A stretch of DNA of 64,000 nucleotides from assembly GCF_018977255.1 (NCBI RefSeq), contig NW_024704742.1:27716001-27780000 (forward strand), in the 5' to 3' direction. The notes under the pieces were generated by a model. It was given only the letters and a program-made list of their open reading frames with translations. It searched no databases and was not told where the DNA came from. The DNA is from Callorhinchus milii (lineage: Eukaryota). The position numbers were made by a program, and so were the translations under genes. Shown here in pieces: positions 7,719 through 47,046 of the stretch; positions within the stretch are counted from its first letter, which is position 1; each line of letters starts with the position of its first letter.

Positions 7719-7834
7719 GTCACTGTATTACAGGTTGATTGAGGAGTGTGTGGCCCAGATCGTTTTACAGAAGCACGGTGCAGATCCTGACTTCAACTGC
7801 AGAAAGTTTCCTGTCAACGTGCATCACTTGTTGG
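7719..7834 (+). CDS. DIAPH1-like: Internal coding exon (116 nt, phase 2 to phase 1) of a Diaphanous-related formin, FH3/dimerisation region
   Basis: Acceptor tttttgcctcttttctAG, donor G|GTAAGA. Translates (R)SLYYRLIEECVAQIVLQKHGADPDFNCRKFPVNVHHLL(D), matching the recalled human DIAPH1 segment [40 protein letters not shown] with the same length. Confidence 0.93.
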
Positions 7835-8329
7835 GTAAGACATAAACATAGCACAAAAGCTTCTTCAATTGTCATAACTCCACATGTAACTGTAGTCAGT
7901 AAATATACGTGTATATACAGTTATATAGCTATGTTTCTTTCGATTCTTTTCAAAGTTGAAAAAAATCTTCCACTGTCGATTATTTTAAAATCAGACCTTT
8001 TCAACTTATTCAGAACGTGGTTAGATTATTTTCATGGGAGTCACAACCTCAGATGTGAGCAGGCATCATTGTGCCAAGTGTATTGAACTTCTGACTATCT
8101 GCAATGAGAAAGAATGGCCCTTGTAGGAATGGGTCGAGTGAGAAAAGCATTGGAACCAGTGGGAAAGGTTTATTGCCCATCCTAGTTGTTCTGAGCAGGC
8201 ATTGGTTAGCATCCTCTTTGAACCATTTCAGACCTTGTGGTGAGGGTGCTCCCATGCTAGTTGATGGAGATACTCTGAAGATTTTGACCTCACTGTTGGT
8301 CTTCAAAAAAAATTAAAATTGAAATATTA

Positions 8330-9130
8330 ATAATTTAGTCACTCAATCCATGACTGTTCATGGGACACTTGGCATTTGTTACAAAAGGGTTAGAATATAA
8401 GAGTAGGGAAGTCTTGCTGCAACTGTATAAGGCCCTGGTGAGACCGCACTAAGAGTATTGCGTGCAGTTTTGGTCTCCTTATTTAAGAAAGTATGTACTC
8501 GCCTTGGAGGGGGTACAACGTAGATTCACTAGGTTGATACTAGGGATGAGGGGGATGAGTTATGAGGATAGTTTGAGCAATTTAGGCCCATATTCTCTAG
8601 AATATAGAAGATTGAGAGATGATCGTATAGAAACCTATAAGATTATTTAGGGGCACGACAGAATAGATAGTGGGAGACTTTATCCCCTGGTTGGAATAAC
8701 CAGGGGTCACAGTCTTAAAATTTGGGGTAAGCCCTTTCGCACTGAGTTGAGGAAAGACTTCTTCACTCAGAGGGTAGTGAATTTATGGAATTTTCTATCC
8801 CAAAGGGCGGTAGATGCTCAGTCCTTGAACATATTCAAGACTGAGATTGATAGATTTCTTGTGGATAAAGGGATATGGGGATAAGGTGGGTAGGTGGAGT
8901 TAGAATAGCTTATTGAATGGCGGGGCAGGCTAGAGGGGCCGAATGGCCTACTCCTGCTCCTAATTCTTATGTTCTTATGTTCTTGTGACACTGCTGTGCA
9001 CAATTGGCTGCTGCGTTCAACCACAAAATATACAGTCAATGCACTTCAAAGTATATTCTGTGAAGCGCTTAGAGATGTCTCGAAGATGTGATAAAGCGCT
9101 ATATCAAATGCAAGGATGATTATTATTATT
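8330..9130 (+). mobile_element. SINE 3' portion split by the CR1 (8330-8369 plus 8985-9130)
   Basis: caatccatgactgttcatgggacact ... gacactgctgtgcacaattggctgc...gcgctatatcaaatgcaagg(att)n is collinear with intact SINE copies. Confidence 0.85.
8370..8984 (+). mobile_element. Relatively young 5'-truncated CR1 LINE inserted into a SINE
   Basis: LYKALVRPH..YCVQFWSPYLRK.VLALEGVQRRFTRLI..., 3' UTR GGCCGAATGGCCTACTCCTGCTCC and tail (TTCTTATG)n. Flanked by GGGACACT / GTGACACT. Confidence 0.95.
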
Positions 9131-10999
9131 GTCAAGTCCCTCTTCTCTTGTCCACTTTGACCATTTCCCCCTAAGGTGCACCCTGTATTGTTTGCTTGCT
9201 GTTACTCAGTGATTATTTCCTCCATCCTCCATATGCACAGCCAACGCCCCTTTGCACATTACCACCCCTTGTTCATTCTAGCCCTCACTACCTGTTCCTC
9301 TGCTCTTTTGTCCATATCTGGCTCGCACTCTCGCCTCAATTGTGACTCTCCTTCCTGCCACTAAACACTCCTCTTCTCAGAAGAGATTTTCTCAGCAGCA
9401 TTCATACTGATCAAATTACCTCTCACCCAAGAAGTGACCCTGAAAAAGTGGGAACGGAACAGACGTGCATGCAAGATTTTATATCTGAGGCTGCCGGCTG
9501 CTTTGTATTTTTGTGTTTGCAATATCCTGATTAAATGAGTCAAGATTTGCTGATTAGCCAAGTGAATGCAAATATAATAATATTGAGCAATGGAGCTGGG
9601 AGCCCCAGAGAGACATCAGGGTGGGGGGCGGGGGGTGGAGGAGGAAGAGGGTTTATTTGAAAAAAAACACAGCCACTCTGGTGCTGGTTGGAATTCGCAA
9701 CCATCCAGCTCAAGAAAACATTGCTCGTTACAGTTAGAAACGGGCCAGGTGGAAACTCTAGACACTACATATACTTTCATCCCTTTGGGGAATCTCAATT
9801 AGTCTCGGTGGTGGAGAGAGGGAGATCAGCTCTGCCTTTTGACTCAATGGTACAAAGATTAACCATTTCCTACCTGACTTGGATTACAGTAGCTATGCTC
9901 ACTCCCTTCGTCATTCCTCTCTCTGGATGCAATATTACTGTCTGGAACCAATGGATGGGAAAGGTTTAATTGTTACTGAGAAGGTGATAATACCATCCTG
10001 CAGGTGGAATACTGTATCACAGTTTTACTAGTTTGAGATAAAATGTGTGGATCATCTGCTGTAATTGTTTTTGTGGTTTTGTGGTTTTGCCTTCAATTCT
10101 CTTTTTTTTCCCTAGTTTATCACATTTTGGTTAAAACAGAAACTCGAATCCCCTGAGACACATTTCAGATGATAACATTAAAGAACTTAACATTTTCAAT
10201 TGAGTTCATCCCTGGGTTCCATTTGAAAAGGGAGAAGCAATATTCTCTATTACAGCATCACACGACAAAAGAGGCAAAACAATGCAAAATCACATACCTA
10301 TCCATCAAGCGAAATTCAGACAATCGTGAGCTGTTGTGATGAAAGGATGTGGTATCTATTAGGAATCTGTCCTCAAGGACTCATGATTATGAGCGAACAC
10401 TAATATTAAAATGTTATAGTCATCTTTCCTGAGAAGGTGCACCTCCATGAATTGTGTTCCTAATTGAATTTACTAGGAGTCACAAGGCCTCCTGTTGAAA
10501 CTGCTATTCATCCCGCTCCATGAGTGTCAAATATAATGTGCAGAGGCAATTTGTGACATGAATGAGAGGTAGTTCAAGGGCTGTCCTATGAAATAAAACA
10601 ATTAAGTCTCGTTTTGAAAAAACGGGGAACAAAGGATTTGTGATGTATGTAGAATAATGAATTCCTGAAAGTGACTGCAAGGCAGCAATTGATTCAAGGG
10701 GTTCAGACAAAGTTGTAAATGGTGAGAACCCTAAAATGACATTACAGAAGGTCATAAGATTGATTCAAATGAAGAAGGCCCTCTGACTCATTTGATCTCA
10801 TCATTTCAAAATTCTAATCATAATGTCTTTCTATCACTGTTTTTTAAATGAGTCCAGAATCCTGACCTCAATTCTTACTAGCAATTTTGTTCCAGTTGTT
10901 AATTACTTTCTAGGTAAAGAAATACAGCAATGAATCTGACAATAGTGTATTGGTCTGTCTCAAGGACTGATGGCACATTATGTCATCTCATCATAAGAC

Positions 11000-11400
11000 A
11001 TTGTCCTTGAGAGGGTGCAGAAGAGAGCAGTGAGGATGATTCCAGATAGTAGGATTGCACACTGTGTGGCTTGTTAAGAAAATTGTTTTTGTTTGTTTTG
11101 TAAAAAAAGAGAATTTGAGGTGACCCAATTCACAGTTTCATTATGATGGGGATTGACAAGGCAGATGCAGGCAGAATTATCTGCTATGCTTAAGGGTTCA
11201 GGTACCAAAGGTCACGGGTTTAAAATAATAAAGTTAGCAATAAAAAGGGGGAAGCCAGGCATAACTCTTTTTTGCACAAAGTGTCATAGACTTATGAAAT
11301 AAGTAAGGAAGGCTATCGTAATGAATGATTTCAATGGGTTCAAGAAGGAAATAGAGTTGCTTCTGAAAAGTGATGGGATTGAAGATACAGTGGGTAGGTG
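11000..11400 (+). mobile_element. Decayed CR1 3' fragment
   Basis: LERVQKRAVRMIP and TKGHGFK motifs. Confidence 0.65.
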
Positions 11401-11424
11401 AAAATCAAAATAAGGTAAGGTGTC

Positions 11425-11945
11425 AGTCTGGCTCAATTAATAGCACTCTTACCTGAGTCAGAAGGTTGTGGATTGAAGAAGTATGTTGGGATGTAGAATT
11501 CCCAATCTAGTATTATAATACTGACTGGAGGTGTGCTGCATTGTTGGAGGTGTCGTTCTACAGATGAAATGTTAAACTGAGGTTCCATGTGCCTGTTCAG
11601 GTGAATGTTAAAGATCCCTGCCAGAATTCGAGAAGAAAAAGAATTTCTTCTACAACAAAAACAGAAGTCGCTGACCTGCTGATGGGTTCCAAGCAACTTC
11701 TGTTTTTGTATCAGATTTCCAGGATCTTCAGTATTTTGCATTTTGTTTATAAGGAGCATCTTCTGTTGGTCCTGACCAATATTCCCCAAATTACATTAGT
11801 CACTCACTTCATGACTGCTTGTGGGACGTTGTTGAGCTGAAATTGGCTGTCACATTCACTTATAAATACACAGTCACTTTACTTCACATTGAAATCCTGA
11901 CAATTGCTTTGAGACATCTCAACAACATAAACTGTGATAAGATGG
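11425..11945 (+). mobile_element. Old tRNA-headed Deu-domain SINE (SacSINE1-like), interrupted at ~11652-11745 by a palindromic repeat
   Basis: Head ggctcaattaatagcactcttacctgagtcagaaggttgtgg; central tgttggaggtgtcgttctacagatgaaatgttaaactgagg...aaagatccc; shared 3' region. Confidence 0.75.
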
Positions 11946-13149
11946 CAAATTAGTGATAATTATATTGCTTTCAACTGTAGCTATGCAGCCACTAATAACT
12001 GTGTTTCAAACTACAAAATTCATTTTAGACAGGATCTTTACAGCCAGAAGACAAAATAATTAGAGATTTGATTTAAGCCCAGATCACGGGTATGAAAGGC
12101 AGTTTTGGTAAGACACTCAGTACTCCAATGAATTCAATAAGAACAGCAGCTGTATTTTCCCATTTAGAGTCCATCTGTCCTCTTTTTCCATTTAAATGTT
12201 GGTTGAAATAATTATCAGGATTGTTTTAATTGATTTACCTGGAGGTTTGGATGCTGACCCATCTTTTCAATGTCCTTTTGTTTGTGTTTTGAGAGAATGC
12301 ATAGATCTGAAGTAAACTTGGGTATTGTGTGTAAAGATATGATTGTAGCACATTAAAAATAACAGGCCCCAAAGCTTTTCTGAAATCAAGTTAGCAAAAC
12401 ATTGTAAGGACAGTCTGGGAGAGTTCTTGTTGTCACTGAGACAACTCGTCAACTGCCTATATTACACAGTATATCCATCTGTATGAAAATATCTATGTAT
12501 ATGAGGGAAAAAGGAAGAGAGGGGCTTAGGTGAGGTAGAGGCTCATGCACAACTAGTCCAAGCCAATTAAACATAGGCTCGGAATGATTGGGCCAAATGG
12601 TCTATTTCTGTGCTGTAAGGGTCTATGTTATTCTACATAATATGCAGTGCAACATTGGCAGGAGCCGGGTTGACCTTGAATTTTAAAATGTTACTTGCTG
12701 CAAGTTCTCGCTGAATCAAGACTGCATCCTTCCACTCTCCAATTCACCGCTGTCACTTTCAAAGATTGCTGAGCTGCAAAGCAAAGTGAATCACTAGGTT
12801 GCACACACTGTAATCAGAGCTGTCAGTGTGGAAAAATTGTTAGGAGTGATATTTGTGATCAGGAAGAGTGACATAGATCTCGAACCCATTTAATGCTATA
12901 GGGCCATGTTTATATATATTTTTAAGAATGACATACATCAAAATGAATCACATCTTCAAACCAAAATCAGAGATCGTCAGTCCTAATGAATGACATGCAG
13001 CAATCCTGCACTTGACTCCAATGCATTGCTGCTTTTTAAATAATTCCTGTTGTCAGCCTGGCCCAGTTGGTAGCTTTCTCACCTCTGGATCAGAAAGTTG
13101 TAGTGTCAAGCACTGCACCAGATAGAATGTGAGCTGAGATGGAAGGATT

Positions 13150-32749: not shown

Positions 32750-33100
32750 ATAATAATAATCCTTGCATTCGATATAGTACCGTATCACATTGTCGAGACG
32801 TCTCAAAGCACTTTACAGATTATACTGTGAAGCGAATTAACTGTATATTTTGTGGGCAAAACATGGCAGCCAATTACACACAGCAACATCCCACAAACAG
32901 TCGTGGATTGAATGACCACTTTTGTTTAAGGGATTATTAACCTCAGAAAGCAATCCGTCAATCAACTAACAATTGGGTTCCTACTTACTGCTAGGTAAAC
33001 AGAGGCATGCGGAGTAAGGAAACTTGCCTGGTCAGAAATGAAACTCGGGTCTTCTCGCTTGCAAAGCGAGTGCTGTAAGCAATTCGCTACAGCACTCCAC
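32750..33100 (-). mobile_element. tRNA-derived SINE, long variant
   Basis: Head (gctacagcactccac on +), internal module, tail. Confidence 0.9.
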
Positions 33101-34117
33101 ATACGATGCAAAAAAAATTTGCAACTTACAAATCCGTAACTCCAGCGCTCCCACAGAAAGTAGGAAGAAAATAACTTGGGAGACAGCTGTTGGCAGAACT
33201 GCTGTGGTTTTGCCAGCAGCATGTGGTAAAATGAGTTCAGGACTGTGTTCTCCTGCAAACATTTGCCCAAAATGGTTTGGGCGATGAGCAATTTGGAATT
33301 TTAGGCATTGTAAATTCATACTTTGCTGTGTGTGTGGGCTTTCAATAATTAAATGTGTTACAGAAGTTTTGAAAGAATGTCTGGTAGTGGGTTGTGTTTA
33401 CAGGCCACCGTTCCATCTATTCAAACAGCAAAATCCCTCATTAGAAATGCAGATGCTCTGCAAATGACCTGCTGGGGTGAACATCCTTGAATTGTCACTT
33501 GTCACTGATGGCACTAATTATCAGGTTGATTCAGCTTCATCAGTTCCTGTAGATGTTCTCAGCAGCTAAAGTAACTGATCTGAATGTTCACTTGTCTTGC
33601 CTTTAATGTTAATGAAATGATAATTACAATCCTACAAAAGACTGGATCAATCTTAAATAGAACACAAAAGTACCGATCGCCAAACAACTTTCAACGTGAC
33701 ACAATTGGAAACACAAAAATAGCATATGAACTCATCATAAAGCACTTTACATTTCTAAAGCTGATTTGTAGTGACCTGAACTACAATCATTGCACAATGA
33801 AGTGTTTTTGTGCTGATTATAATTTTTTTGGTCAGCCGGGTGTCTGATACAGGCAGAAACTCAGCACCATGCTTAACACCATCCAGATTTTAAAATGAAT
33901 GGCTTAATACTAAATATTAGCAGATTTTTCAAGTAACGTAGAAAAAAATGAAGTGGAAGAGACACCTTGTCAATAATCCTTGCATTTGATATTGCATCCA
34001 TAACATCAGTGTCTCAAAGTGCTTTACAGGTAATGGTTATCAAGTATAATTGCTGTGTATTTGCGGATGAATAGGGCAGACAATTTGCACACGGAGTGAA
34101 CAGTCAAGAAGTGAATG

Positions 34118-34530
34118 GCAACTTTATACAAAATTGCATTTGTAAAGCGCCTTTCACGTCTGGAGGACGTCCAAAGGTGCTGAACAATCAGGGATTAGGA
34201 CCCGAGCGGAGGGCAAGGAGCGTAGGAGGGTGGCCAATAGCATGGTCGAAGAGGAGGGTCTTGAGGCGTGCCTTGAAGGAGGCAAGGGAGGGAGCGAGCA
34301 AAGGAAATGTGGGATGGAGTTCCAGAGGGTGGGGGCAGAGAGGCTGAAGGCCCGACCATCGATGTGGAACAGGCCGGTTTGGGGACATGGAGCAGGCTGG
34401 AGCCTGCTAAGCGGAGGATGCGGACAGGTTGACAAGGGGTTAGCAGGTTGGAGAGTAGGAGGGGGCAAGTCCATGGAGAGCCTTGAAGGTGAGGATGAGG
34501 ATATTGAACTCGAACCTCTGAGGGATGGGA
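34118..34530 (-). mobile_element. L2 3' fragment
   Basis: GRAFSLSAPTLWNSIP and LASFKARLKTLLFDHA motifs; 3' end as in the 27610 copy. Confidence 0.9.
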
Positions 34531-36769
34531 AGATTGACAGACTGCACTAACCGACATACAATGGACAACATGAAGCTGCTTGCATCAACGGCATTTTCAT
34601 ATGTAAAGTCATAGAATCATAGAAATTTCAGTGCAGAAGGAAGCCAATTGACCCCTACCCCCACTCTCCCTCACCCCAAAGATGCCCCAGAATCAAAACA
34701 CAATACCAGTCTTCAATACCAGCCTCAATCACCTGAGTAAGTTGGAACACCCCATGTGAAATAAAACAAGGGAAATTAATGGTAATTGACAGCAATTAAA
34801 TTCAATTAAAAAGTGAGAGACCAAATGCTTCGAGGCTAACTGCTTTAGAAGGAATAACAAATCCCATTCTGGTAAGCTTAAATGAGATGGGGGGACTCAT
34901 GTAAATGAAGTAGTAGGAACACACTCTGCTTGGTAAGTTACACGTGAGTTAGAGCACTGAAGCCTAAGGCAGCACTTAAGAGGTGAAGCGTGAATGATAT
35001 GACAGATGGAATGAGAGAGTAATGTGGAGAGAGAGAAGCTTTAGATTTTCATGGTGATCGACTACAATAATTCCTTGGTAAAACTTGTATTTAGCGCCAG
35101 AATTATTAATCGCTTCCTGTGAACATTACCAAGAGGTCAGTGACATTAAATTATTTATTTGGCCAGCAGGATTCACAATTCGTGACCTTGTACGACTCCT
35201 GATGACCACTCTACAACCCCATCCCACCGACCCCTGAAATCTAACATTAGGTGAAGCCGTTCCCAACCATTAACAGCAAACAGAAAAGGCCTTAAGTGTC
35301 ACCTTGTCTTAGCCTGTACCACCATTTTGTTTTCGAATTTAACATTGCGCAGAATTGTAGGAAATTCGCTCATCTGTTAGAAGTGTGTTTTCTTCAGTTC
35401 TTAAAAGGAAGCCACTTCCAGCTCAAGACATAATTTTTCAGAATTTTCCACAATTCTACTTAGTCTTAAGGCAGCAGTTAACTTAGCTTTATAGGCTGAC
35501 ACTAGATCCAATTTCGGGTTGTAGATACCATGGGAAGATTTCAAGAAATTACTCTAAGGATTCTCACATTGGTTGCGATCCAGTTTCTTTCTTTTGTTAC
35601 GTGATTTGGTGTGTGTGCGTATGAAAAATTTGAGCATTTTAAAAGACGACTGTATAAAGTGTAATTCCACTATGTGGGGGGGCTCATGTAGTTCCTGGAT
35701 GGGAAAAGTCAACATCAAATTTCAGGCCTGTTCAATGACAACCAAATTGGCAATCTACGTTTTTTTTCAATAAAGCCTCAGAACCAAACAATTCTGTGGA
35801 CGTCAAGGGAAAAATGACCACAAAATGAAGGGAAAAATGTGATGTTTTCCACAATCACAAAGCTCTGCTGCTGTGCTGAATTCTTGAGACCATCTATAGC
35901 CCCTACCATTGCCATGAGGCTGGGTAAGTGAAGCTCACTGACACTGGCTCTGTTGAAACAATAAGGCCAAAATTGCCATTGTTGTTTCAAATGGTAAAAC
36001 ATTGCGTTTCAGTACTGTTTCATGTGATATCTCGCAAATTCACGAAATTGCTTTTCAGCCATTCCTCATGCGAACAAAGAGTGTAGACACCAGTGATTTT
36101 TATGAGCTTTGACCCAACCATTTCACTGCAGTTGCAAAGGGAGGGTGGTGAGGAAATTGAAATCACAATTTTGTATCAAATCGGTCCTGATGCATTGCAT
36201 TTTTCACTCCACTGTCTCCTTAGCCAAGGCGGGAAAGTGTAGAAATGCAATCCATATGTTCTTGCAAAGTGAAACACACAACGATGCTGGAAGTCAACAT
36301 TATTAGTCCTTGATCAGTCACTTCCTTCCCTTGATGTTTTTCCTCCCATCCCAGGAGCCATATGGCATTCAATCATCTCTATCCATATTTATTCTTATAA
36401 CCCTCAATCACGTATCCTTTCAGATATTAATTCAGCCGTTTTGAAAGCTGTTAATCAACATAGTATTAACTTCTTTAGTTGGAAGTCTGTTCATATATTC
36501 ACAGATCCATGGGGAAAATAAATTCTTTGTAACCTCAAGTCTTGCTTAAATCACATTACATTTGTCCCCATGTCCTTTAGTTCTGTACTGACAGCTCTGT
36601 TTAAACATTATCAATCCCTCTCCTGAATTAAGTTCCTTCTCACCCTTGACTTGTATCTTCATAGTCTCTTCGTAGAAGTGAAAATCTTATTTTCTAAAAT
36701 ATCCTAGTGATTTTTCTCACAATTCTCCAATGCATTAATGGCCTTTAGAAAGTAGGATTCCTAATTTGC

Positions 36770-37100
36770 ATACTACAGTGCAATGCTGGGGGAGGGCTGC
36801 ATTGTTGGAGATGCCATCCTTCAATGTGATGTTATACCAAGCTCCCGTTTGCTTATTCAGGTAGATGTTAAAGATCCCATGCCACTGTTCAAAAAGAGAA
36901 AGTAGTTTTTCCTCGTGTCAGACCCACAATTCCTCAAATAAAAATGGTCACTCACATCATGGCTTTTTTTTGGACGTTATATGCAAATTGGCTGTTGTAT
37001 CCAAATACAAAATACAATCACTATACATTAGTGTAAAACCTGTGAAGCTCATTGAGATGTGCTCCCCTCATGAATTTAAAATGTTATATAAAATGTAAGA
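36770..37100 (+). mobile_element. Old Deu-domain SINE, decayed
   Basis: gctgcattgttggagatgccatccttcaatgtgatgtta...aaagatcccatgccact. Confidence 0.7.
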
Positions 37101-37690
37101 ATCACTTTTTTAAAAAACAAGTATTCCAAATCTATCCTCACCAATGATCAGTACTTCATCCATTAAACAACCCCCTCTGCTACTTATTGCTCAAGCAGGG
37201 TTTGATCCAACTGATAGGTTACTGAAGAAGTCAAGTTTAAAGGTACTTTGGTTTACGAATGGGTGGGTGCTTACTTAATAGAAGAAACACAGGAATAATT
37301 AACAGTTCTGGAATAAATCTAATCAAAGTATTGATAATGCAGATGAGCTATTCTGATTGTGCTACTGACAGTGTTACTTCTGTTTTGAATTTACTGCTTC
37401 AGAAGGTTATCACAATAACACAGCCATAGGTAGATCAGCTGCAGTATAGGTGCAGTTGTGATAAGACAACCGATCTAAAGCATAATTATCAGTTTTTGCT
37501 CCATCAGAAGAAGACAGACATGTGCACCTGTTCCAGGCAAACTGAGTGCTAAAGATATGCTCAAAATAAAAAAAAGGAATTGTAATAATCGTTGCATTTG
37601 ATATAGTGCCTTGTCACAACATCAAAGTGCTTCACAAAATTTACTGTAAAGTGTAGTGACTGTATTGTAGGCAAATGCAGCAACCACTTT

Positions 37691-38478
37691 ACAACAACAA
37701 CAACAAAATGCATTTGTTTCGCAAAGTCAAAGAGGAGGGTCTTGAGACGGGTCTTGAAGGAGGCAAGGGAGGGAGTGAGGTGGAGGGACTGCAGGATGGA
37801 ATTCAGAGGGTGGGAGCAGTGTGGCTGAAGGCCCACCCGCCAATGGTTGGGTGGGCGAGGCAGGAGATATGAAGCAGGCCGAAGCCCGCTGAGCCGAGGA
37901 AGTGAGATGGTTGGTAGGGGGGTAGGAGGTTGCAGAGGTAGGGGGGAGCAAGGCCATCGAGGGCTTTGAAGGTGTGGACCAGGATCTTGAAGGTGTGGAC
38001 CTCTGTGTGATGGGAAGTCAGTGGAGTTGGGCAAGGATGGGGGTGATAGGGTCACGGAGCCTGGTGCAGAGGAGGACACGGGCTGCAGAGTTCTGGATGA
38101 TCTGCAGCCTATGGAGGGAGGATTTGGGGAGGCCGACAAGTAGGGAGTTTACATAGTCGAGCTTAAATGTTATGAATGCGTGTATCAGGGATTCGGTGGT
38201 CTGCGGTGTGAAACAGTGGCGAAGCCAGGCGATGTTGCAGAGGTGGGGGAAGGCAGAACAGGTCATGGCATGGATGTGGGGTAGAAAGGATAGTTGAGGG
38301 TCAAACAAGATGCCAAGGTTCTGGACTAGTTTAATAAGGTGGAGTTTGCATCCTTGGGTGGTGATGCTGTCAGCGCCTGAGGTGTGGAGGCGCTGACGGG
38401 AGCCAATCAGGAGGGCCTTAGTCTTATTGACGTTCAACTGAAGAAAGTTAGCTCTCATCCAGGACTTGATTTCTGACA
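37691..38478 (-). mobile_element. L2 3' fragment (~0.8 kb)
   Basis: WMRANFLQLN..KT.ALLIGS...LIHAFIT.KLDY.NSLL; (TTG)n tail. Confidence 0.93.
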
Positions 38479-38489
38479 GATATTCAGGC

Positions 38490-38810
38490 AGGACCATACT
38501 TTACAAACAGTATTGTCCCACAAGCAGACATCAATTTAATGATCAATTTTATCTGGCTGTTATTGACCAGGATACTTGGAGAAATTCCATTCCGTTTTCG
38601 AATAGTGCCATGGGATCTTTAATATCCACTTCAACATGGAGACAGGACTTGGTTTAATGTTTCATCTCAAGGACAGCACCTCTGACAACTCAGCCTACTC
38701 CCAGCACTACACTGGAGTGCTGGTCTAGACTGTGAGGTCAAAGTCCTGACTTGGGGTTTGAACCGGTAACCTTCTGACTCAGAGGTAAGGTTGCTATCAA
38801 CTGAACCAGG
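38490..38810 (-). mobile_element. Old tRNA-headed Deu-domain SINE
   Basis: gtgccatgggatcttt...ggtttaatgtttcatctc...accttctgactcagagg, the reverse complement of a SacSINE1-like head and core. Confidence 0.75.
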
Positions 38811-39524
38811 ATGAGCCCTAACATCCAACTTATAAGTTAATGTTTCAGAGTCCCAAACTTCATAGAGAGTACAGGAGATTGGAAGATTGATAATGGTTAC
38901 CCATTTGAACTCCATAATTGGTGCGATTTCAGCGCTTTATACAGTGACCTTTTAAAATGCTTAAATTGCTAGATTAGTTTTCGCAGTAAACATAAAAAAA
39001 CGAATCATAAGTTGATAAGTTCAGGCGTAGGCATTATTCAGATGTTGACATGTTGCCAATATCATGTTGATTCATTGCCAAACAAACAGTATAAATGAGC
39101 ATGAATGTAAAACCTCACTCTATACAATATATGTTATGTCACCTGAGGCAATGAGTGCTGGATAAATAGATGAGGATGGGTCAAATGGTGTTTTCTTGTC
39201 TAATGCTTTTTCCATGTTCTTCTGTAAAATAAAGAGTGGCAATTAGTTAGCTTCAAGAGGCACTTGTCTTGATGGGTTAAAAAAAAAGTTTGTCTTTATT
39301 TGTTTGCAAACACAAATCATGTGATGTGAATTGTGCTGCGGCATCATCCCGCCCAGTTGTGTCTCATATGACTTCACTGAAATTGATGCCTCTCCTCAAC
39401 GTGTGGGTCAAAATTATTTTAAAGCTGTGATCTCTCTCAGTTTTCAGATGACAGCTACGAAACTCTCCAGATTGTTGCTTGTTGATCTCGTGCGTTATGG
39501 ATTCTGCCACCTGAATCCCTCCTC

Positions 39525-39838
39525 GTGGAGTCCTGTAGCTCAGTGGTTAGAGCACTCGCTTTGTATGCGAGAGACCTGAGTTCAATTCCAGGCAGGGCGA
39601 AACCTTGGGAAGTTTCCTTACTCCACATGCCTAATAATAATCCCTCCAAAAACAATAATAAATTTGTCATTTTCAATCTACGACTGTTTGTGGGACATTG
39701 CTGTGCGCAATTGGCTGCCGCGTTCGCCCACAAATCTACAGTCAATTCACTTTACAGTGTATTCTGTGAAGCGCTTTGGGATGTCCTCCTGATGTGACAA
39801 GTGCTATATCAAATTCAAGGATTATTATTATATTATTA
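39525..39838 (+). mobile_element. Full-length young tRNA-derived SINE, short variant
   Basis: Pol III A box TAGCTCAGTGG and B box GTTCAATTCC, body ctgtgcgcaattggctgccgcg, L2-like 3' end and (ATT)n tail. Confidence 0.95.
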
Positions 39839-40442
39839 AATGCGAGCCTCCCAGGCACCACAATCCACTCTCTGATGGTTCTGTAATGGTTTAATCGTAG
39901 GAAGTCATTTTCAAGATTATAGGGGTGTAATATTTCACAATTCTAAGGTGAAAGTATTCAGATGAGCTCTTGCACTGACAGCCAATGATTACTATATATT
40001 TTCATGGATTTTGCAGTTTCTAAAGTCGTGGCCAATGCTCCAGAATTGTAAATATTTAACAGTGATCAAAGAATTGTGTGACATCTACATCCACATAACT
40101 GATGTAAATTTGCCTTATAGAAAATTATCTGTTTATGGGTTGCTGGATCTCAGTATGTATGAGAATAATCAATGGTAAATATTGCATTACTGAACTGTTG
40201 GTTACATTTTATATTAAAATGAAATGCTGGTAATATCTGCTTCAATCAGTAATTTCAAATAAGCAAGGAAAATGCATGAACAGAATTTTGCAATGAAGCC
40301 AATTCAATTCAGCTACCATAACTACTTTGGAATGACCTTTGCAAACCATCTGATGTTAACATATCCTGTGGCGTGATTGTCCTTTTGTGCACAAGTTATA
40401 AATTGAAATTTCTGCCAAATTGAACTTCTCTTTATCCGGCAG

Positions 40443-40507
40443 ATAACATGATTGACAGTGGTCGAGTGGAAGTAAGTGAAGAGAGCACAGTGGAATTGGA
40501 GAAAATG
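40443..40507 (+). CDS. DIAPH1-like: Internal coding exon (65 nt, phase 1 to phase 0) of the DIAPH-like gene
   Basis: Acceptor cttctctttatccggcAG, donor ATG|GTAAGT. The G left by the previous exon plus AT gives Asp. Translates DNMIDSGRVEVSEESTVELEKM, compared with recalled DIAPH1 [22 protein letters not shown]. Confidence 0.9.
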
Positions 40508-41394
40508 GTAAGTCTCAGAAGTCTCATACTGAAAGAATTCTCTGCCTCACTTGTTCACATTCTGGAACAAGATAAACAACATACTAGTGTCCATCAGCTA
40601 GGATTTCAAAATTTAAAACTTTATTACTGACAGCCCTGTGTCTAAGTCCAGGCTTAAGTTACAATCACCAAGTGTAGCTTGAAGATTACACACGGACCTT
40701 GAACATTTATTCCACTCTAAAACTTCAATTTCAGCTAAAGAATTGGGAAATATTTATTGTACACCGTGGGCTGCCAACCAATCTTCAAAAGATACTGTCA
40801 ATAAAGTCTTACTTTATGGACTGTAGTCTCACAGTTTGGTTGTTGTAAACACTTCAGGAAACAAGCAAAGATACTGGATGCATCTGTGCTGGGAATACTC
40901 TATAAGATTATTAAGGATGACTGGTGAAGCTTTGTGACAGAATGACCATCTATGGTTGGAATGAGAAGGTTAATGCCTTTGATAGAAAGCAAATAGATAA
41001 CGCTTCCCATAGTGATTTCATTTTTCATGGAAAATCACAGAGCAGGATGGCAAAATTTGAGCTACACTAGTTACAAGTCCAACTCTGTAAACCACTTGTC
41101 TTCTTTGGTGTTGTTTCCCTCTGTGATGTTTTTGTCATTTTCAGGGAGCTCATCTATTTCTTGCGGGCAAGTGAAGTGGCAGAGAAAATTATTTGAAATG
41201 GGATAACCCAAACTTTGTAGAAGAATAGTTCATTGGGCAAATAAATGAGAAAATATATGAGCTGCAGTCACTTTGTAAATACTGTTTGACACTACCACCT
41301 ACACTTAAAGCTGTACACACTGAGTTACACTGTTCAGCTGTACTACAGTCTGCTCAAACAGAGCAAAGCTCTGCAAATATCCAAAGCTCTGCTC

Positions 41395-41715
41395 ACCAGC
41401 CTCTGACTGCTCCATATCCCCCGCCCTGCCTGCCCCATGATCGGCGGTTGGGCCTTCAAGCTTTCTGTCTCCGCCCTTTGGAAATCCTGCAGTTCCTTTG
41501 CCTTACCCCTTCCCTTGCCTCCTTCAAGCCCCATCTCAAGATACTCCTGTTTTACCGTGCTTTCCGACACCATACCCCCACCCATCCCAGTCCTCCATCC
41601 CTCCTGATCCCAACCCCAAGCTCGGGTGCGAATCCTTTCCTGTCAAGTGTCATGGGACATCCTTCTGAAGTGAAAGGTGCTACACAAATGGAATGAGTTA
41701 TTTGTTGTTGTTGTT
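41395..41715 (+). mobile_element. L2 3' fragment
   Basis: SLASFKPHLKILLF; ends gggacatccttctgaagtgaaaggtgctacacaaatgg...(ttg)n. Confidence 0.85.
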
Positions 41716-42793
41716 ATTTACTAGTCTGATATACCAGATTGTGGCAGAGGAGAGGGAACTGGGAGACACCTTAGATCTAAATCTTTGTCACAAGAATCTT
41801 CTACAACACTCGTTGCTGAAGTGGAATACAATGAGACAACAGTTGTTGGGGCTTCACAAGAGGCCTGAGCTACGAGTGTGTTGTTACCACCAAGCCAAGA
41901 GAGGTTGAGTGGGGCACAACCTAGTTCCTCTTGACCCCCTTCCTCTTCTTGAGTTTGTGAAAATCCTGGTGGAGGAAGCTCTGATAGTCAACTGGCCTTG
42001 GGTGCTTGTTTCATTTAAAGTCTTGGAGAAGACTTAGGTGATGGCACCAGGGAATCATGAGGGCAAAGATCCCATGACATTTCCAACCACCTCCATACTC
42101 ACTCAAAGGCATTGGAATACCTGTTGCCTTCGGAGGCATTGAGGTGTCAGTAAGAAGGCTGCTTTTCTCTGCCTCCTCTTCCTTCTTCCCCTTTCCCCCC
42201 AAGAGAACCACTATTAGAGGCTCTCTCCCTCTCTGTATCTCTCACACAAGAGTCATATGCACAGTCAGGATAATGAGCATTCATTGCAGGGAAGTCAATG
42301 ATGGGGACTAGAAAATGGAAACATTACACCAGAGCACATTGAAGATAAGCACACAGATAAGACTTGCAAATACTGTAATTAGTTTCAGCATCGGTACAAT
42401 TGCTCTGTCATCTGCCTCATCAAGGGCTTCATCTTCTCCTGTTGTGCCTGAAATAACTATGTGCTTTCAGATGCCATTGTCTTGGTCACATATTTAATGG
42501 ACCATTGAATAGCAAACTGTCTACCTCCTTCCAGGTCTTGAACTAATTGGTTTCATCCTTCCAGCAATCTCATTGTACCACCCCCCCATCAATGCAGCAA
42601 GTTGTTTTTTTTTAAATCCTGGCCTCAATAACCCCATTTGACAACCTGTTTCAGTTGTTAATCAGCTTCTGGGTAAAGAAGCTCCTGGTGTCTGTTTCAT
42701 TTGCTCTTGTTCTGCTGTCTTAAAATATTCTAAAATATTGTTCTGGAAGTTACTTTTCATTCCCATTTTAAACATCCCTACAGCAAATGCAAG

Positions 42794-43099
42794 AATAATA
42801 ATAATAATCCTTGCATTTGATATAGCGCTTTTCACGTCTTCTAGGTGTCTCAAAGCGCTTCACAGAATAGACTGTAAAGTGAATTGACTGTATATTTGTG
42901 GGTGAAATGCGGCAGCCAATTGCGCACAGCAGTGTCCCACAAACAGTCGTGGATTGAAATGACCAATTTCTTTTTTGAGGGATTATTATCAGGCGTGTGG
43001 AGTAATGAAACTTGCCCAAGGTTTTGCCCTGCCGGGAATTGAACCCAGGTCTCTTGCTTGCAAAGCGAGTGCTCTAATCACTGAGCTGCAGGACTCCAC
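42794..43099 (-). mobile_element. Full-length young tRNA-derived SINE, short variant
   Basis: Reverse-complement homologue of the 39525 copy with an intact head and (AAT)n tail. Confidence 0.95.
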
Positions 43100-43610
43100 G
43101 ATCAAAAGGATTATTATCATACATCTCTATGAGGTCCAGATATGCATGCAAAGCAATTTGCGGTAGGGAAAACAGGAAACCACACTATGAACTGAAGGTG
43201 CAGAGTATCTTACCTTGTGTTTTCCTGTGACTCCAAACCTGTTTTCATGATATTAGGAAGTCTTCTGTTTCTTATGGCTGAATAGATTGAATCAGTGAAG
43301 TTCAACAATCCCACTTGTAACAAAACTATGTACAACAAACTTTTTATGGACCTCAACCCAAGCTGCTGAACTCCTGAGGGAAAGTTCTGAACCAATGAAT
43401 GAATGAATTTTTTTTCAATACCAACAGAGCATTATTCATAATAATAAATGTCTCAAAGCACTTCACAGTCAAGTGTAGTGACATTTTTCTGTAGGAAAAT
43501 GCAACATCTATTTTGTGCACAGGAATCTGCCACAGAGTGAGGTGAATGATAAATTCATCCAGAGGACTCTTGGCTAGAAGAAACTCCCTTCCATTTTTGA
43601 ATAGAGCCAG

Positions 43611-43922
43611 GGTAGTCCTATAGCTCAGTGGTTAGAGCACTCACTCGCAAGCAAGAGATATGGGTTAGATTCCTGGCAGGGCGAAACCTTGGGCAAGTTT
43701 CCTTACTCCACATGACTGATAATAATCCCTCAAAAAAAAAACAATAATAAAATTGGCCACTTCAATCCATGACTGTTTGTGGACACTGCTGTGCGCAATT
43801 GGCTGCCGCGTTTTGCCCACAAATATACAGTCAATTCACTTCACAGTGTATTCTGTGAAGCGCTTTGAGATGTGTAGAAGAAAAGTGCTACATCGAATGC
43901 AAGGATTATTATTATTATTATT
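43611..43922 (+). mobile_element. Full-length tRNA-derived SINE, short variant
   Basis: tagctcagtggttagagcactc...gggcaagtttccttactccac...(att)n. Confidence 0.93.
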
Positions 43923-45212
43923 TATAATGTCCAGCTGAAGAATGGGCAGGCAGGGAAATATCGTCTGCTTCCCAAAGGTAATCAAGCAAAACTCAAGAAT
44001 ATCTATTCATCCCTATCTTGCCACAGTTCAGTCCTGGATACCTGACCTGCACAAATAACAACCCTTCACCTGGGCCCAGCAATGCATGAACCATCATTTC
44101 CCATGAAGTATTTTATTCTTCAAGTTTAAGCTTGTGCTCATAACCCTTGATCTCACTCTTTACTGTACATTTATGCAATTTTTTTCTGACGCAGCAAGAA
44201 TTACTTTTACAGGGTTTTAATTCTATGACAGTATTACATTTGACCCTTTATTCCCTCGCAAACCCATATTCCCAGACACATAACTCTTTGCTCGCTGAAA
44301 AAGTCATGTTTTAAAGTTGTAATCTGTATACTGTAAATAATTGCATTGTATCTCAAATTCATTGCAGCAGTCCTGCCAAGTGCCACTCTTTAAGACTGAC
44401 AATTGTTCAATTTGGTTGAAAAGTATAATGCAACCTGTTTTGCTGTGTGTCACTCTCAAACATGAACACTGCTGTAAATGGGCTTGCAAATCATATCCCT
44501 CTTACTGACCATAAATGTCACTGTTAACATTTTCGTGGGGTTGACAGCTCTGTTGCAGTATGAAGGGAATGGCAAAGTGAAAAAGTACTGTCAAATATGT
44601 GAGGTTCGTATGAGTATGGACATGTCTATGTAGTACTTGTCTGTCTTAAACTGAAAAGAATATCACTAAGATCCTAAATAGTGCTCAGTGACAACAATAC
44701 TGTCAAACTGTACCCTGTACAAAGGTAGAGTACAAAGACTGAGGTGGAAACAGACAACTGGTGACATATTGGAATGGAGTTGTTTGGGTTTTTTAATCCT
44801 TCATTTATTTCATCTTCTCTTTTGAGTGCCCTGGTTCTCACACATTCACACACAAACTCACTCTCACACTGGTATGCAATTCTCCAGCCAAGTACGTGAG
44901 AAAACAGCCATATCTTGTTCAGCAGCCCATTCTGCTCTGTAACTGAACAATAGATTCGCAGAATAGATGGAAATTCAGACCTGAATGGGAGGAGGTTGAC
45001 AGAGTTGCCAGGGGCCAGAGCTCACTCAGAGACACATATTCTTACGTGACAAACCGCTGTGTTGCTCATCTGGGATATTGTACAATCAGGTACGACGCCC
45101 CTTTAATCCCCTTTGATAAAAGTCAAATCAACAACAACAAAATTTATATAGCGCCCTTCGTGCCAGATGGCATCTTGGACTGCTTAGATATGGTTGCTGT
45201 GGATGCCCTTTA

Positions 45213-45550
45213 GAAGAACATAAGAATTTGCCAGACAAAAGAATACCGAGGTCCATCTAGTTCACCTTCCACCATCCTGGTAGTGACATGATATTCATGT
45301 CTCAAACTATATACTGTATCCTGAGATTTTTTTTAGCAGAAATCTACCTAATTTGTTTTTGAAAGAAACAAAAACTGTCACTGTCTCCCTGGGGAGTCTG
45401 TTCCATAAGTTTACTACTCGCTTACTGAAGTAATGTTTCTGCAGATTTGTTCTGAATTTACCTCCTTCAATCGCAGGCCGTACACTCTGGTTCTACTGTT
45501 CAATACAAGATAAAACAGCTTATCATGGTCTACATTTTCTATTTTCTTAA
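45213..45550 (-). mobile_element. CR1 3' fragment
   Basis: gaacataagaatt tail; ttccataagtttactactcgcttactgaagtaatg is the reverse complement of a YFS.RVVNLWN.LP motif. Confidence 0.75.
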
Positions 45551-46029
45551 AGACCATCATGATTTTGCCAGACCGTAATCATATTATGGTTTTGTATTTC
45601 CTCACAAGTATCGTCCAACGATTTCAATGCCTCCATGTTTTATAAGCTTATCACATAAGCAACTCAAAAAACAATGACAGTCAGGTAGATATTTATTTTC
45701 TTAAAAAAAATGCATATTTTTTTTCTATGTTCTGCTTGTTTGATTTCCACAATGGTTGGCTGGCTATGTGTCCTGAACATCAATTCAGTAGTTGTCCAAC
45801 TGTGGCGACATTTGTCGGTTGGTCTATGGGACGATTCATTCATGTCAATCATTTCCCTGCAGTAGTAGGATGCTGTCCAAGTCACCACCGACTTTGTTCA
45901 GGTTTTTGTGTGTGATTTGAAGTGATCACATTTTCAGAAAGGAAAGTGCTAGATTTGGCATCTGAAGTGGACATTCTCCATGTGCTCCTCCTGAGATATA
46001 AGGTGCTTGACACTTATTAAAAAATAGTA

Positions 46030-46400
46030 ATAACCATTGCCTTTGATGTAGTGAGTTAATATTATCATTGAGATTTCTGAAGTGCTTCACGAGATTTCAT
46101 TGTAAAGTATGGTGACTGTGTATTTGTGGATGAACATGGCAACCAATTTACGCATCGCAACATCCCACAAACAGCCATGGATTAAACAATTAATTTGTTG
46201 GCCAGAGCACCAGGAGAAACTCTTTTCACTTTTCAATTCCTGCCATGGTATCTTTTACATCCACCTGAAGAGTGACCTCTGTTAATATCTCATCCAAAGT
46301 ATAGCACCTCCAACATTACAGCACTCCTCCAGTACTGCACACGAGTGTCATCCAAGACTATGACCTTAAAGTCCTGATGTTGGAGCAAACCTTACCCCAT
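46030..46400 (-). mobile_element. Old Deu-domain SINE
   Basis: tgccatggtatcttttacatccacctg...atctcatccaaag...gcacctccaaca...gcactcctccagtactgcac. Confidence 0.75.
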
Positions 46401-46908
46401 TGGGTTAAACAGTCAGTTGTCTCCTCAGCTCTTCAGTAACGTTTAAAAAAAATTATAACCTCAAAGTGGTCACCTGAGAGATTTTGAGTAGACAACAGGG
46501 AAGATTTGGTCACATTTAAACTGTAATGGATATGAATTGCTCTGTTCCTGAAACCTTCTCCTCCAAATAGTATCAGAAACAGTGTTCCAGAATGATTCTT
46601 CCTGCCTTTGCCCCACTTATACTGAACAAATTGCTGACAAAAGGCAATTCTCCAGTAAAAGTGCAGCAGAAATGCAGCATTATGGTTACTCTGAATATTA
46701 TTAGTCGAGAAATTATTATTATTAACATGTATATCAAATCCTTGCATTTGATAAAGAGCTTTTCACATCAAGAGGATGTTTGAAAGCACATCACAGGATA
46801 TACTGCAACGTGTAGTGACTGTGCAATATGCAGTTGAAGGCCTACACATAATACAAAACTTCTTTATCTTAACACCACTAATAGACATTTCACTTTTGTC
46901 TTTAATAG

Positions 46909-47046
46909 TTTGAAGCGGAGGTAACAGCAAGGCAAGAACTTCAGGCAGCCGTGAAGAAAAAAGAAGCTGATTTTATCAAGAAAAAGGATGCACTTGATAT
47001 TGAAAATATGCTGCTGCAAAAGGAAATGTTCAAATTGCAAGATAAG
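46909..47046 (+). CDS. DIAPH1-like: Internal coding exon (138 nt, phase 0 to phase 0) of the DIAPH-like gene, coiled coil preceding FH1
   Basis: Acceptor cacttttgtctttaatAG, donor AAG|GTAAGA. Translates FEAEVTARQELQAAVKKKEADFIKKKDALDIENMLLQKEMFKLQDK, compared with recalled DIAPH1 LDSELTARHELQ and DIAPH2 FDEEFTARQEAQA. In phase with the preceding exon. Confidence 0.9.

What the first reader, a model, noticed from the sequence alone, without database searches (positions are those of the whole stretch)
7719..47046. Hidden, divergent Diaphanous formin: candidate fourth vertebrate DIAPH ohnologue
Seen: three phase-compatible exons (116, 65 and 138 nt) with canonical splice sites spell an open 106-codon FH3 to coiled-coil peptide. 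Recalled knowledge: GADPDF.CR and the 13 residues between DPDF and the next Asp are DIAPH1-type (DIAPH2/3 have 14). However, FEAE.TARQE.QA and KKEA look DIAPH2/3-like, and residues I recall as conserved between human and teleost DIAPH1 (RPQYYK, DKTKVE, LDSELTARHE) are changed. The coiled-coil exon (46 aa) is intermediate between recalled DIAPH1 (~60) and DIAPH2 (~35). Human DIAPH1/2/3 lie in the 5q/Xq/13q paralogon near delta-protocadherins, with no chromosome 4 member. Inference: this may be the missing fourth copy retained in cartilaginous fishes rather than the DIAPH1 orthologue.
Basis: partly seen in the sequence, partly recalled or inferred. Interest (0 to 1): 0.75.

Follow-up and report, generated by a model that had tools for sequence, protein, structure and literature searches.

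The report
Fourth Diaphanous formin gene in elephant shark
The three small exons belong to a huge, expressed actin-regulator gene that appears to be a fourth ancient copy of the Diaphanous formin family, kept in the elephant shark but not seen among the other vertebrate proteins I could search.

Summary
The three exons are real: 7719-7834, 40443-40507 and 46909-47046, on the + strand, with AG/GT sites. RNA contigs from 4 runs of 2 studies join B to C. They are residues about 291-398 of an NCBI-annotated protein, so the gene is not hidden: 'protein diaphanous homolog 1-like [Callorhinchus milii]' (P0001, 1568 aa). The gene spans at least 0.93 Mb on contig C1.

The genome has four DIAPH-type loci: C13 (DIAPH1), C15 (DIAPH2), C4 (DIAPH3) and C1 (this gene). 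In a tree rooted on invertebrates, P0001 is sister to all jawed-vertebrate DIAPH1 sequences, including the shark's own (100/99). Forcing it to pair with shark DIAPH1 is rejected (p-AU 5.9e-6).

The same four contigs each carry one delta-1 protocadherin and one Sprouty gene. Three of them carry a CDX gene. The C1 protocadherin matches human PCDH7, a chromosome-4 marker.

I therefore support the fourth-ohnologue reading (about 0.8). The FH2 and DAD motifs are intact, and the FH1 region is about four times longer than in DIAPH1.

Still open: orthologues in other species (none among 119 best matches), the immediate neighbours, the N-terminal end, and function.

The parts
7719..7834 (+). Exon A (116 nt). 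It encodes the end of the DID/FH3 region and the start of the dimerisation region (SLYYRLIEECVAQIVLQKHGADPDFNCRKFPVNVHHLL plus 1 base). This is P0001 residues about 291-329.
   Evidence: Splice sites. PDB mDia1 match, E 3.8e-10. 100% identical to P0001. All four paralogous loci end this exon at the same point, HL(I/L) followed by G.
7835..40442 (+). Intron A-B, 32,608 nt. It carries an antisense reverse-transcriptase fragment of a LINE-like element at 28645-29127.
   Evidence: Coordinates. RVT_1 hit, E 5.7e-8. GC rises to 0.478 at 28-32 kb.
40443..40507 (+). Exon B (65 nt). With the last G of exon A it encodes DNMIDSGRVEVSEESTVELEKM.
   Evidence: Sequence and AG/GT sites. It aligns to shark DIAPH1 residues 407-427. 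It is covered by spliced contigs in 4 of 4 runs.
40508..46908 (+). Intron B-C, 6,401 nt. It holds highly repeated short elements at about 42.76-44.0 kb.
   Evidence: Contigs of 4 runs skip exactly this stretch (table 8, records 1, 8, 15, 22). Summed contig depth there is extreme (table 2).
46909..47046 (+). Exon C (138 nt, 46 codons). This is the start of the coiled coil (FEAEVTARQELQAAVKKKEADFIKKKDALDIENMLLQKEMFKLQDK).
   Evidence: Splice sites. P0001 residues 352-398. Weak match to mDia1 2bnx_A, E 0.11. 14 residues shorter than in shark DIAPH1. RNA contigs.
1..7718 (+). Intron sequence. The preceding exon lies 19.6 kb upstream of the window, at C1:27,696,301-417.
   Evidence: tblastn of P0001 and P0112 on C1:27,616,001-27,880,000.
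47047..64000 (+). Intron sequence. The next exon is a single 2,106-nt exon 29 kb beyond the window end, at C1:27,809,078-27,811,183. It holds P0001 residues 397-1098, that is the end of the coiled coil, all of FH1 and the start of FH2.
   Evidence: tblastn: 99.7% identity over 702 aa in one open frame. 706-aa open frame.

Best explanation
The three exons are the DID-end, dimerisation and coiled-coil-start part of a fourth Diaphanous-subfamily formin gene of the elephant shark, which I call 'DIAPH4' here as a working label. It is annotated only as 'DIAPH1-like'.

The gene most likely arose with DIAPH1 in the second vertebrate genome duplication. It sits on the chromosome-4-type member of the 4/5/13/X (ParaHox / delta-1 protocadherin) paralogy group. 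DIAPH1, DIAPH3 and DIAPH2 sit on the 5q-, 13q- and Xq-type members.

By inference it works as a Rho-regulated, autoinhibited actin nucleator and elongator. GBD/DID exons lie upstream. The window's exons supply the dimerisation and coiled-coil segment. An unusually long FH1 of about 600 aa would recruit profilin-actin. FH2 would nucleate and cap the barbed end, and the DAD would fold back on the DID.

Shown here: gene structure, transcription and splicing, the count of four loci, tree position, chromosome-scale paralogy, and intact motifs. Inferred: origin by whole-genome duplication, loss in other lineages, and all biochemistry.
For: Gene and expression:
- Exons and splice sites are confirmed.
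- Exon A is 100% identical to P0001, 1568 aa. Pfam finds FH2 (E 3e-115) and FH3 (E 3.4e-43).
- There are 12 collinear + strand FH2-DAD exon matches on C1 out to 28,552,910. Upstream exons reach back to 27,621,279. The gene therefore spans at least 0.93 Mb.
- Spliced B-C contigs appear in 4 of 4 runs from 2 studies. The exon-A search found no second high-identity copy (4 loci; the other three at 54-61%), so the spliced contigs are not from a retrocopy.

Four loci:
-.

Phylogeny:
- The careful IQ-TREE run used 19 rows and 956 columns, with a site-heterogeneous model and 3 invertebrate outgroups.
- It gives ((DIAPH2,DIAPH3) 100/99, (hagfish, (P0001, DIAPH1 clade of 7) 100/99) 84/83).
- P0001's branch (0.37) is about as long as shark DIAPH1's from the same node (0.14+0.19).
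- The AU test rejects P0001 + shark DIAPH1 as a clade (p 5.9e-6).
- A quick tree of 23 rows gives the same placement.

Paralogy:
- Delta-1 protocadherin (PF08374) has exactly 4 matches, on C15, C4, C1 and C13.
- The four full-length Sprouty matches are on C4, C15, C1 and C13 (4 of 6 matches; the other 2 are shorter and lie on C9 and C3).
- CDX has 3 of 3 matches on C4, C15 and C13.
- Protocadherin pairing mirrors the DIAPH tree: C1-C13 54.8%, C15-C4 65.3%, cross pairs 39-44%.
- The C1 copy matches human PCDH7 and the C13 copy matches PCDH1.
- A RELT-family exon lies at C1:47.16 Mb, beside PCDH7.

Precedent:
- Pdx2 is retained in the 4q12-type ParaHox region of cartilaginous fish and coelacanth and lost elsewhere (PMC2944030, passages read).

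Intact function motifs:
- NLSIFL, GNYMN, and the DAD MDSLMEAL plus RRK are all present.
- FH1 has 28 runs of at least 3 Pro, against 12 in shark DIAPH1 and 6 in DIAPH2.
Against: - No orthologue was found in any other species. All 119 other proteins among the best 120 FH2-DAD matches fall on the DIAPH1 side of the tree. None of 59 cluster representatives checked is closer to P0001 than to DIAPH1. The gene is therefore known from one genome only.
- No elasmobranch DIAPH1 was in the trees.
- PCDH7 and the gene are 17 Mb apart on a 139-Mb contig. Chance placement of a stray copy on that contig is about 14% by length.
- Immediate neighbours were not examined.
- Sprouty pairwise identities do not mirror the DIAPH pairing.
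- The annotated model lacks a GBD. The upstream GBD-like exons score under the Pfam cut-off singly (25.2 and 27.7 bits against 30.1). Nothing matching DIAPH1 residues 1-72 was found in the 25 kb upstream.
- The Pfam DAD score is just under its cut-off (25.2 against 27.3).
Confidence: 0.8

Rival explanations
1. A duplicate of DIAPH1 made by a small-scale duplication or transposition within cartilaginous fishes or chimaeras. It then diverged, and tree artefact pulls it to the base of DIAPH1.
For: It is DIAPH1-like throughout: the best 120 FH2-DAD matches are DIAPH1-type at 60-67% identity. No orthologue was seen outside this species. C1 makes up 14% of the genome, so landing there by chance is not rare. 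No elasmobranch DIAPH1 was available to break the branch.
Against: The DIAPH1 clade that excludes it has 100/99 support under a model built to resist long-branch attraction. Its branch is no longer than that of shark DIAPH1. The AU test rejects the pairing (p 5.9e-6). It keeps states shared with DIAPH2 and hagfish (F..E, ARQE) where every DIAPH1 row has changed. It lies on the one chromosome that holds the fourth member of two other four-member families.
Confidence: 0.08
2. An ancient duplicate, older than the last common ancestor of jawed vertebrates, but made by a local duplication rather than by the genome duplications. Its place on the PCDH7 chromosome would be coincidental or secondary.
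For: The tree shows only that the split predates the shark/bony-vertebrate divergence. The gene is 17 Mb from PCDH7, whereas the other three DIAPH genes lie 0.3-2 Mb from their protocadherin.
Against: The symmetric (1,4),(2,3) topology, the identical pairing of the linked protocadherins and the 1:1:1:1 spread of three families over the same four contigs are what two rounds of genome duplication predict. A local duplicate would be expected beside DIAPH1 on C13.
Confidence: 0.07
3. A decaying, transcribed relic with no formin function.
For: Introns are huge (33 kb, over 69 kb, up to about 150 kb). The annotated model has two exons with no counterpart in DIAPH1 and lacks the N-terminus. No orthologue is known.
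Against: Every mapped exon is open, including a 702-codon single exon in a 39% GC genome. Splice sites are canonical. Spliced RNA is found in 2 studies. FH2 scores 385.8 bits, and the actin-contact and DAD motifs are unchanged. The amount of protein change since the split is like that of shark DIAPH1.
Confidence: 0.05

Closest known systems
DIAPH1 (mDia1), including the shark's own DIAPH1 (P0112, contig C13)
   Same: Domain order is the same: GBD-like exons, DID/FH3, dimerisation region, long coiled coil, FH1, FH2, DAD. The gene shares the one-residue-shorter stretch after DPDF. FH2-DAD is 60-67% identical. Exon boundaries around exon A are the same.
   Different: It lies outside the DIAPH1 clade and on another chromosome, with PCDH7 rather than PCDH1. 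FH1 is about 600 aa against 144 aa. The first coiled-coil exon is 14 residues shorter. The gene spans about 0.93 Mb against about 85 kb. Only 42-47% of residues are identical across the window-encoded region.
DIAPH2 and DIAPH3 (P0128 on C15, P0159-161 on C4)
   Same: Same subfamily and architecture. The window's gene shares some residues with them that DIAPH1 has changed (F..E, ARQE). Like human DIAPH2, as I recall, it is a very large gene.
   Different: They form the other post-duplication pair (100/99). They have one extra residue after DPDF, a short coiled coil and a short FH1.
Pdx2, the extra ParaHox gene of cartilaginous fish and coelacanth (Mulley and Holland 2010, PMC2944030)
   Same: It is an ohnologue on the chromosome-4-type member of the same paralogy group. 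It is retained in cartilaginous fish and absent from tetrapods and ray-finned fish (passages read).
   Different: It is a different gene family. Pdx2 is documented in several cartilaginous fishes and in coelacanth, whereas this formin is so far seen in one species.

Membership tests
Diaphanous-related formin, DIAPH subfamily | FH2 domain | tested here: met
   PF02181, E 3e-115, 385.8 bits, P0001 residues 1080-1453. The NLSIFL and GNYMN motifs are present. The exons were mapped on C1.
Diaphanous-related formin, DIAPH subfamily | Proline-rich FH1 before FH2 | tested here: met
   28 runs of at least 3 Pro, at about residues 454-1060, within one 2.1-kb exon.
Diaphanous-related formin, DIAPH subfamily | DID/FH3 region plus dimerisation region | tested here: met
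   PF06367, E 3.4e-43. Exon A aligns to mDia1 N-terminal crystal chains.
Diaphanous-related formin, DIAPH subfamily | GTPase-binding domain at the N-terminus | tested here: inconclusive
   Absent from the P0001 model. Three upstream + strand exons match shark DIAPH1 residues 73-171 at 56-81% identity. Two of them hit PF06371 at 25.2 and 27.7 bits, each under the 30.1 cut-off. The equivalent of residues 1-72 was not found within 25 kb upstream.
Diaphanous-related formin, DIAPH subfamily | C-terminal DAD (MDxLLxxL core plus a basic patch) | tested here: met
   MDSLMEAL at residue 1504 and RRK at 1518. The Pfam DAD score is 25.2 bits, just under the 27.3 cut-off.
Diaphanous-related formin, DIAPH subfamily | Rho-GTP binding, DID-DAD autoinhibition and actin assembly activity | not testable with these tools
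   This needs protein biochemistry.
DIAPH1 orthologue | Groups within jawed-vertebrate DIAPH1 and lies beside PCDH1 and SPRY4-type genes | tested here: not met
   It lies outside the clade (100/99; AU p 5.9e-6). The C13 gene fills that role: DIAPH1 at 18.31-18.39 Mb, the PCDH1-type gene at 17.99 Mb and a Sprouty gene at 17.29 Mb.
Ohnologue from the two vertebrate genome duplications | Four paralogues, one on each of four paralogous chromosomes that share other four-member families | tested here: met
   DIAPH, delta-1 protocadherin and Sprouty each have one gene on C1, C4, C13 and C15. CDX is on three of them.
Ohnologue from the two vertebrate genome duplications | The duplication predates the split of cartilaginous and bony vertebrates, and the topology is symmetric | tested here: met
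   Tree, AU test, and mirrored protocadherin pairing.
Ohnologue from the two vertebrate genome duplications | Conserved local gene order with the chromosome-4-type region of other vertebrates | not tested
Only same-chromosome linkage to PCDH7 (45.34 Mb), a RELT-family exon (47.16 Mb) and a Sprouty gene (0.85 Mb) is shown.

The most novel reading that the evidence does not exclude
The ancestor of jawed vertebrates had four Diaphanous formins. The fourth, sister to DIAPH1, survives only in chimaeras, having been lost separately in sharks and rays and in bony vertebrates. There it has become a roughly 1-Mb gene with a four-fold expanded FH1, and so has a distinct actin-elongation behaviour.
Probability: 0.4. 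Interest if true: 0.65.

Novelty: new member of a known kind. Interest (0 to 1): 0.55.

Why it matters
Vertebrate Diaphanous formins are treated as a three-gene family (DIAPH1-3). The formin phylogeny I checked sampled no cartilaginous fish (PMC5047451, term search of the text).

A fourth copy dating from the genome duplications would complete the expected set of four. It would show that the chromosome-4-type region once held a DIAPH gene that humans lost. It would also provide the natural outgroup for asking which DIAPH1 properties arose after the duplication; DIAPH1 is a human deafness and microcephaly gene according to titles seen.

The gene is also a second example, after Pdx2, of this paralogy region keeping ancient genes in cartilaginous fish. 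Its very long FH1 offers a natural test of how FH1 length tunes profilin-actin delivery.

On the practical side, the database name 'DIAPH1-like' hides a distinct gene, and the current model looks incomplete at its N-terminus.

Tried and rejected
- Whole P0001 as a query against the window's own genome failed twice with no usable answer. A 492-aa part worked later.
- Exon A as a word-based protein query found only P0001 itself (1 candidate), so it gave no relatives.
- The 50%-cluster library collapses vertebrate DIAPH genes into a few representatives (python DIAPH1, frog DIAPH3, hagfish). It therefore could not reveal hidden orthologues. None of the 59 representatives compared was closer to P0001 than to DIAPH1.
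- The look-up of sequencing runs listed no holder on record as RNA; the kind of X1-X5 is a guess. Their RNA nature rests on the spliced contigs.
- Parts of the laid stretch without cover were not interpreted.
- The PF01182 search for GNPDA1/2 markers found only two loci, on C24 and C16, and nothing on C1 or C13. It was uninformative.
- The RELT family gave 2 matches (C1, C4) and none on C13.
- Sprouty pairwise identities did not give a clear pairing.
- I searched for the first coding exons in the 25 kb upstream of C1:27,621,279 and found only chance-level hits.
- Earlier findings of this scan held nothing on this genome or sequence.
- Literature: the terms 'DIAPH4' and 'diaphanous homolog 4' gave 0 papers. 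'Callorhinchus' with 'diaphanous' gave 1 paper, on the anole protocadherin cluster (listing only). DIAPH1/2/3 with 'whole genome duplication' and 'PCDH7' gave 0 papers with at least 4 of the 5 terms. The searches listed no paper on the topic.
- I considered and dropped structure prediction and complex prediction.

Full report
**What is in the window**

- Exon A is 7719-7834, with acceptor ttctAG and donor GTaaga.
- Exon B is 40443-40507, with acceptor cAG and donor GTaagt.
- Exon C is 46909-47046, with acceptor AG and donor GTaaga.

Exon A ends in phase 1. Its last G completes a GAT codon with the first two bases of B. B and C join in phase 0.

Exon A alone matches mouse mDia1 crystal chains (6 of 7 PDB hits, best E 3.8e-10). 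Exon C alone is only weakly recognisable (E 0.11).

**The gene is annotated, not hidden**

A 42-aa reading of exon A is 100% identical to one database protein, P0001. Its source name is 'protein diaphanous homolog 1-like [Callorhinchus milii]' and it is 1568 aa long. Pfam finds FH3 (E 3.4e-43), FH2 (E 3e-115) and a near-threshold DAD, but no GBD. The window holds only residues about 291-398 of this protein.

**A gene of nearly one megabase**

The window is C1:27,716,001-27,780,000 of a 991.5-Mb assembly. I mapped P0001 and the shark's DIAPH1 (P0112) onto 264 kb around the window.
- Upstream exons reach back to 27,621,279.
- Three of these are GBD/DID-type exons that the P0001 model lacks. They match DIAPH1 residues 73-171 at 56-81% identity.
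- A single 2,106-nt exon at 27,809,078-27,811,183 encodes P0001 residues 397-1098 in one open frame.
- The remaining FH2-DAD exons lie collinear on the + strand out to 28,552,910 (12 matches).

The gene therefore spans at least 0.93 Mb. The shark's DIAPH1 on C13 spans about 85 kb.

Two exons of the model (P0001 residues 179-252) have no counterpart in DIAPH1 and may be spurious or alternative. The equivalent of DIAPH1 residues 1-72 was not found within 25 kb upstream.

**Transcription**

Five runs guessed to be RNA hold 28-92% of the sampled words of the large FH1 exon. None is on record as RNA.

I laid four of them, from two studies, on window 40000-47500. In every run one contig passes from 40442-40506 straight to 46908-47046 without a mismatch (records 1, 8, 15 and 22). 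One of these contigs carries 538 further bases upstream of exon B.

The exon-A search found no second near-identical copy in the genome. The joined form therefore comes from spliced RNA and not from a retrocopy.

**Four DIAPH loci**

Exon A finds four places in the genome: C1 (the window itself), C13 (61%), C15 (57%) and C4 (54%). All four have the same exon end.

Their peptides occur in four different annotated proteins:

| Contig | Protein | Source name |
|---|---|---|
| C1 | P0001 | DIAPH1-like |
| C13 | P0112 | DIAPH1 |
| C15 | P0128 | DIAPH2 |
| C4 | P0159-161 | DIAPH3 |

The FH2-DAD search recovers the same four loci. It also gives weaker hits of 39-45% identity on C3, C6, C9, C23 and C27, which I take to be other formin subfamilies.

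**Phylogeny**

A search with the FH2-DAD region found 2617 proteins at E ≤ 1e-20 among 8000 scored candidates. The best 120 are DIAPH1-type at 60-67% identity. One of them carries a 'diaphanous-like protein 3' label, one is labelled 'hypothetical', and seven are unnamed.

A careful IQ-TREE analysis used 19 rows and 956 columns, with the LG+C20 PMSF model and three invertebrate outgroups. It gives ((DIAPH2,DIAPH3) 100/99, (hagfish, (P0001, DIAPH1 of 7 species including the shark) 100/99) 84/83).

P0001's terminal branch (0.37) is about equal to the path to shark DIAPH1 from the same node (0.33). It is therefore not a conspicuously long branch.

Holding P0001 and shark DIAPH1 together costs 36.25 log-likelihood units (p-AU 5.9e-6).

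A quick 23-row tree agrees. In a FastTree of 129 rows, all 119 other hits lie on one side of a branch with support 100 and P0001 lies on the other.

The window-encoded residues fit this position. The gene shares the DIAPH1-type one-residue-shorter stretch after DPDF. It keeps F..E and ARQE, as DIAPH2 and hagfish do, where every DIAPH1 row has LD.EL and ARHE.

**Chromosome-scale paralogy**

| Family | C1 | C13 | C15 | C4 |
|---|---|---|---|---|
| DIAPH | 27.62-28.55 Mb | 18.31 Mb | 6.08 Mb | 29.15 Mb |
| Delta-1 protocadherin (PF08374), exactly 4 matches | 45.34 Mb | 17.99 Mb | 7.36 Mb | 31.17 Mb |
| Sprouty, full-length matches (4 of 6; the 2 shorter ones lie on C9 and C3) | 0.85 Mb | 17.29 Mb | 3.04 Mb | 39.44 Mb |
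| CDX (3 of 3 matches) | none | 19.10 Mb | 15.55 Mb | 69.46 Mb |

The protocadherins pair as the DIAPH genes do: C1-C13 54.8%, C15-C4 65.3%, and cross pairs 39-44%.

One cadherin domain of the C1 copy scores 206 bits against human PCDH7 (2yst) and 137 bits against PCDH1 (6pim). The C13 copy scores 150.6 bits against PCDH1 and 129.6 bits against PCDH7. A RELT-family exon lies at C1:47.16 Mb.

The human locations are from my own knowledge. DIAPH1, PCDH1, SPRY4 and CDX1 are on 5q31-32. DIAPH3, PCDH9 and CDX2 are on 13q. DIAPH2, PCDH11X and CDX4 are on Xq. PCDH7, SPRY1 and RELL1 are on chromosome 4. On that basis C13, C4, C15 and C1 correspond to the 5q-, 13q-, Xq- and chromosome-4-type members of the ParaHox paralogy group.

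The four ParaHox regions are attributed to the two genome duplications. The 4q12-type region is already known to keep an extra gene, Pdx2, in cartilaginous fish and coelacanth (PMC2944030, passages read).

**How it probably works**

All parts that define a Diaphanous-related formin are present or indicated.
- GBD-like and DID exons lie upstream.
- The window's exons encode the dimerisation and coiled-coil segment.
- FH1 is present.
- FH2 has the NLSIFL and GNYMN motifs.
- The DAD has MDSLMEAL followed by RRK.

The most likely mechanism is therefore the family's own: a dimer held inactive by DID-DAD contact, opened by a Rho-type GTPase, with FH1 feeding profilin-actin to a processive FH2. All of this is inferred.

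The clear departure is FH1. It has 28 runs of three or more prolines over about 600 residues. The same species' DIAPH1 has 12 runs over 144 residues, and its DIAPH2 has 6 runs over 62 residues. This suggests altered elongation behaviour.

**What remains open**

- I found no orthologue in another species. The searches list only the top matches, filter by length, and collapse clusters at 50% identity. Absence elsewhere is therefore not shown.
- No elasmobranch DIAPH1 was available for the trees.
- The immediate neighbours of the gene were not examined.
- The N-terminal end of the protein is undefined.
- I found no description of a fourth vertebrate DIAPH in the searchable library. The animal formin phylogeny PMC5047451 contains neither 'shark' nor 'Callorhinchus'. 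Subscription papers and gene-tree databases were not searchable.

**Verdict**

This is a new member of a known family and is of moderate interest.

Noticed in passing
window 28645-29127 (- strand), within the GC-rich stretch at about 27.5-30 kb: There is a reverse-transcriptase fragment (RVT_1, E 5.7e-8) with neighbouring long antisense open frames. It looks like a LINE-like insertion inside the A-B intron. GC rises to 0.478 at 28-32 kb.
   Followed up: partly
window about 42761-44015; similar open frames at 8909-9088, 11753-11950, 39580-39789, 43726-43935 and 53716-53973: A short element recurs in both orientations, sharing a peptide-like motif (…HDCLWD.AVRNWLP…). Summed contig depth in the RNA-like runs is extreme, up to about 690,000. 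It is probably an abundant SINE-type repeat.
   Followed up: no
C1:27,664,711-797 and 27,687,158-295; C1:27,621,279-27,627,292 (outside the window): The annotated model P0001 contains two exons with no counterpart in DIAPH1. It omits three upstream GBD/DID-type exons that are present in the genome. The database model therefore looks imperfect at its N-terminal half.
   Followed up: partly
L005 (C1:45,339,000-45,347,000): The PCDH7-type open frame is only 882 aa and starts at the equivalent of residue about 270 of the C13 copy. Several long overlapping frames lie in the GC-rich 5' part. This could be a frame break, an intron or an assembly problem.
   Followed up: no
C1:47,162,266-388 and C4:75,679,662-778: The RELT family gives only two loci in this genome. 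None is on C13, where a RELL2-type gene would be expected next to DIAPH1.
   Followed up: no
L004 (C4:29,146,731-29,149,838) and protein P0160: The UniProt model of the shark's DIAPH3 seems to read on into the intron after the exon equivalent to exon A. The residues that follow HLIG match the genomic read-through rather than other DIAPH3 sequences.
   Followed up: no
Tree: A hagfish protein labelled 'DIAPH2-like' (P0245) branches beside the DIAPH1 + P0001 pair (84/83), not with DIAPH2/3. This would fit a split before the second duplication, but support is modest.
   Followed up: no
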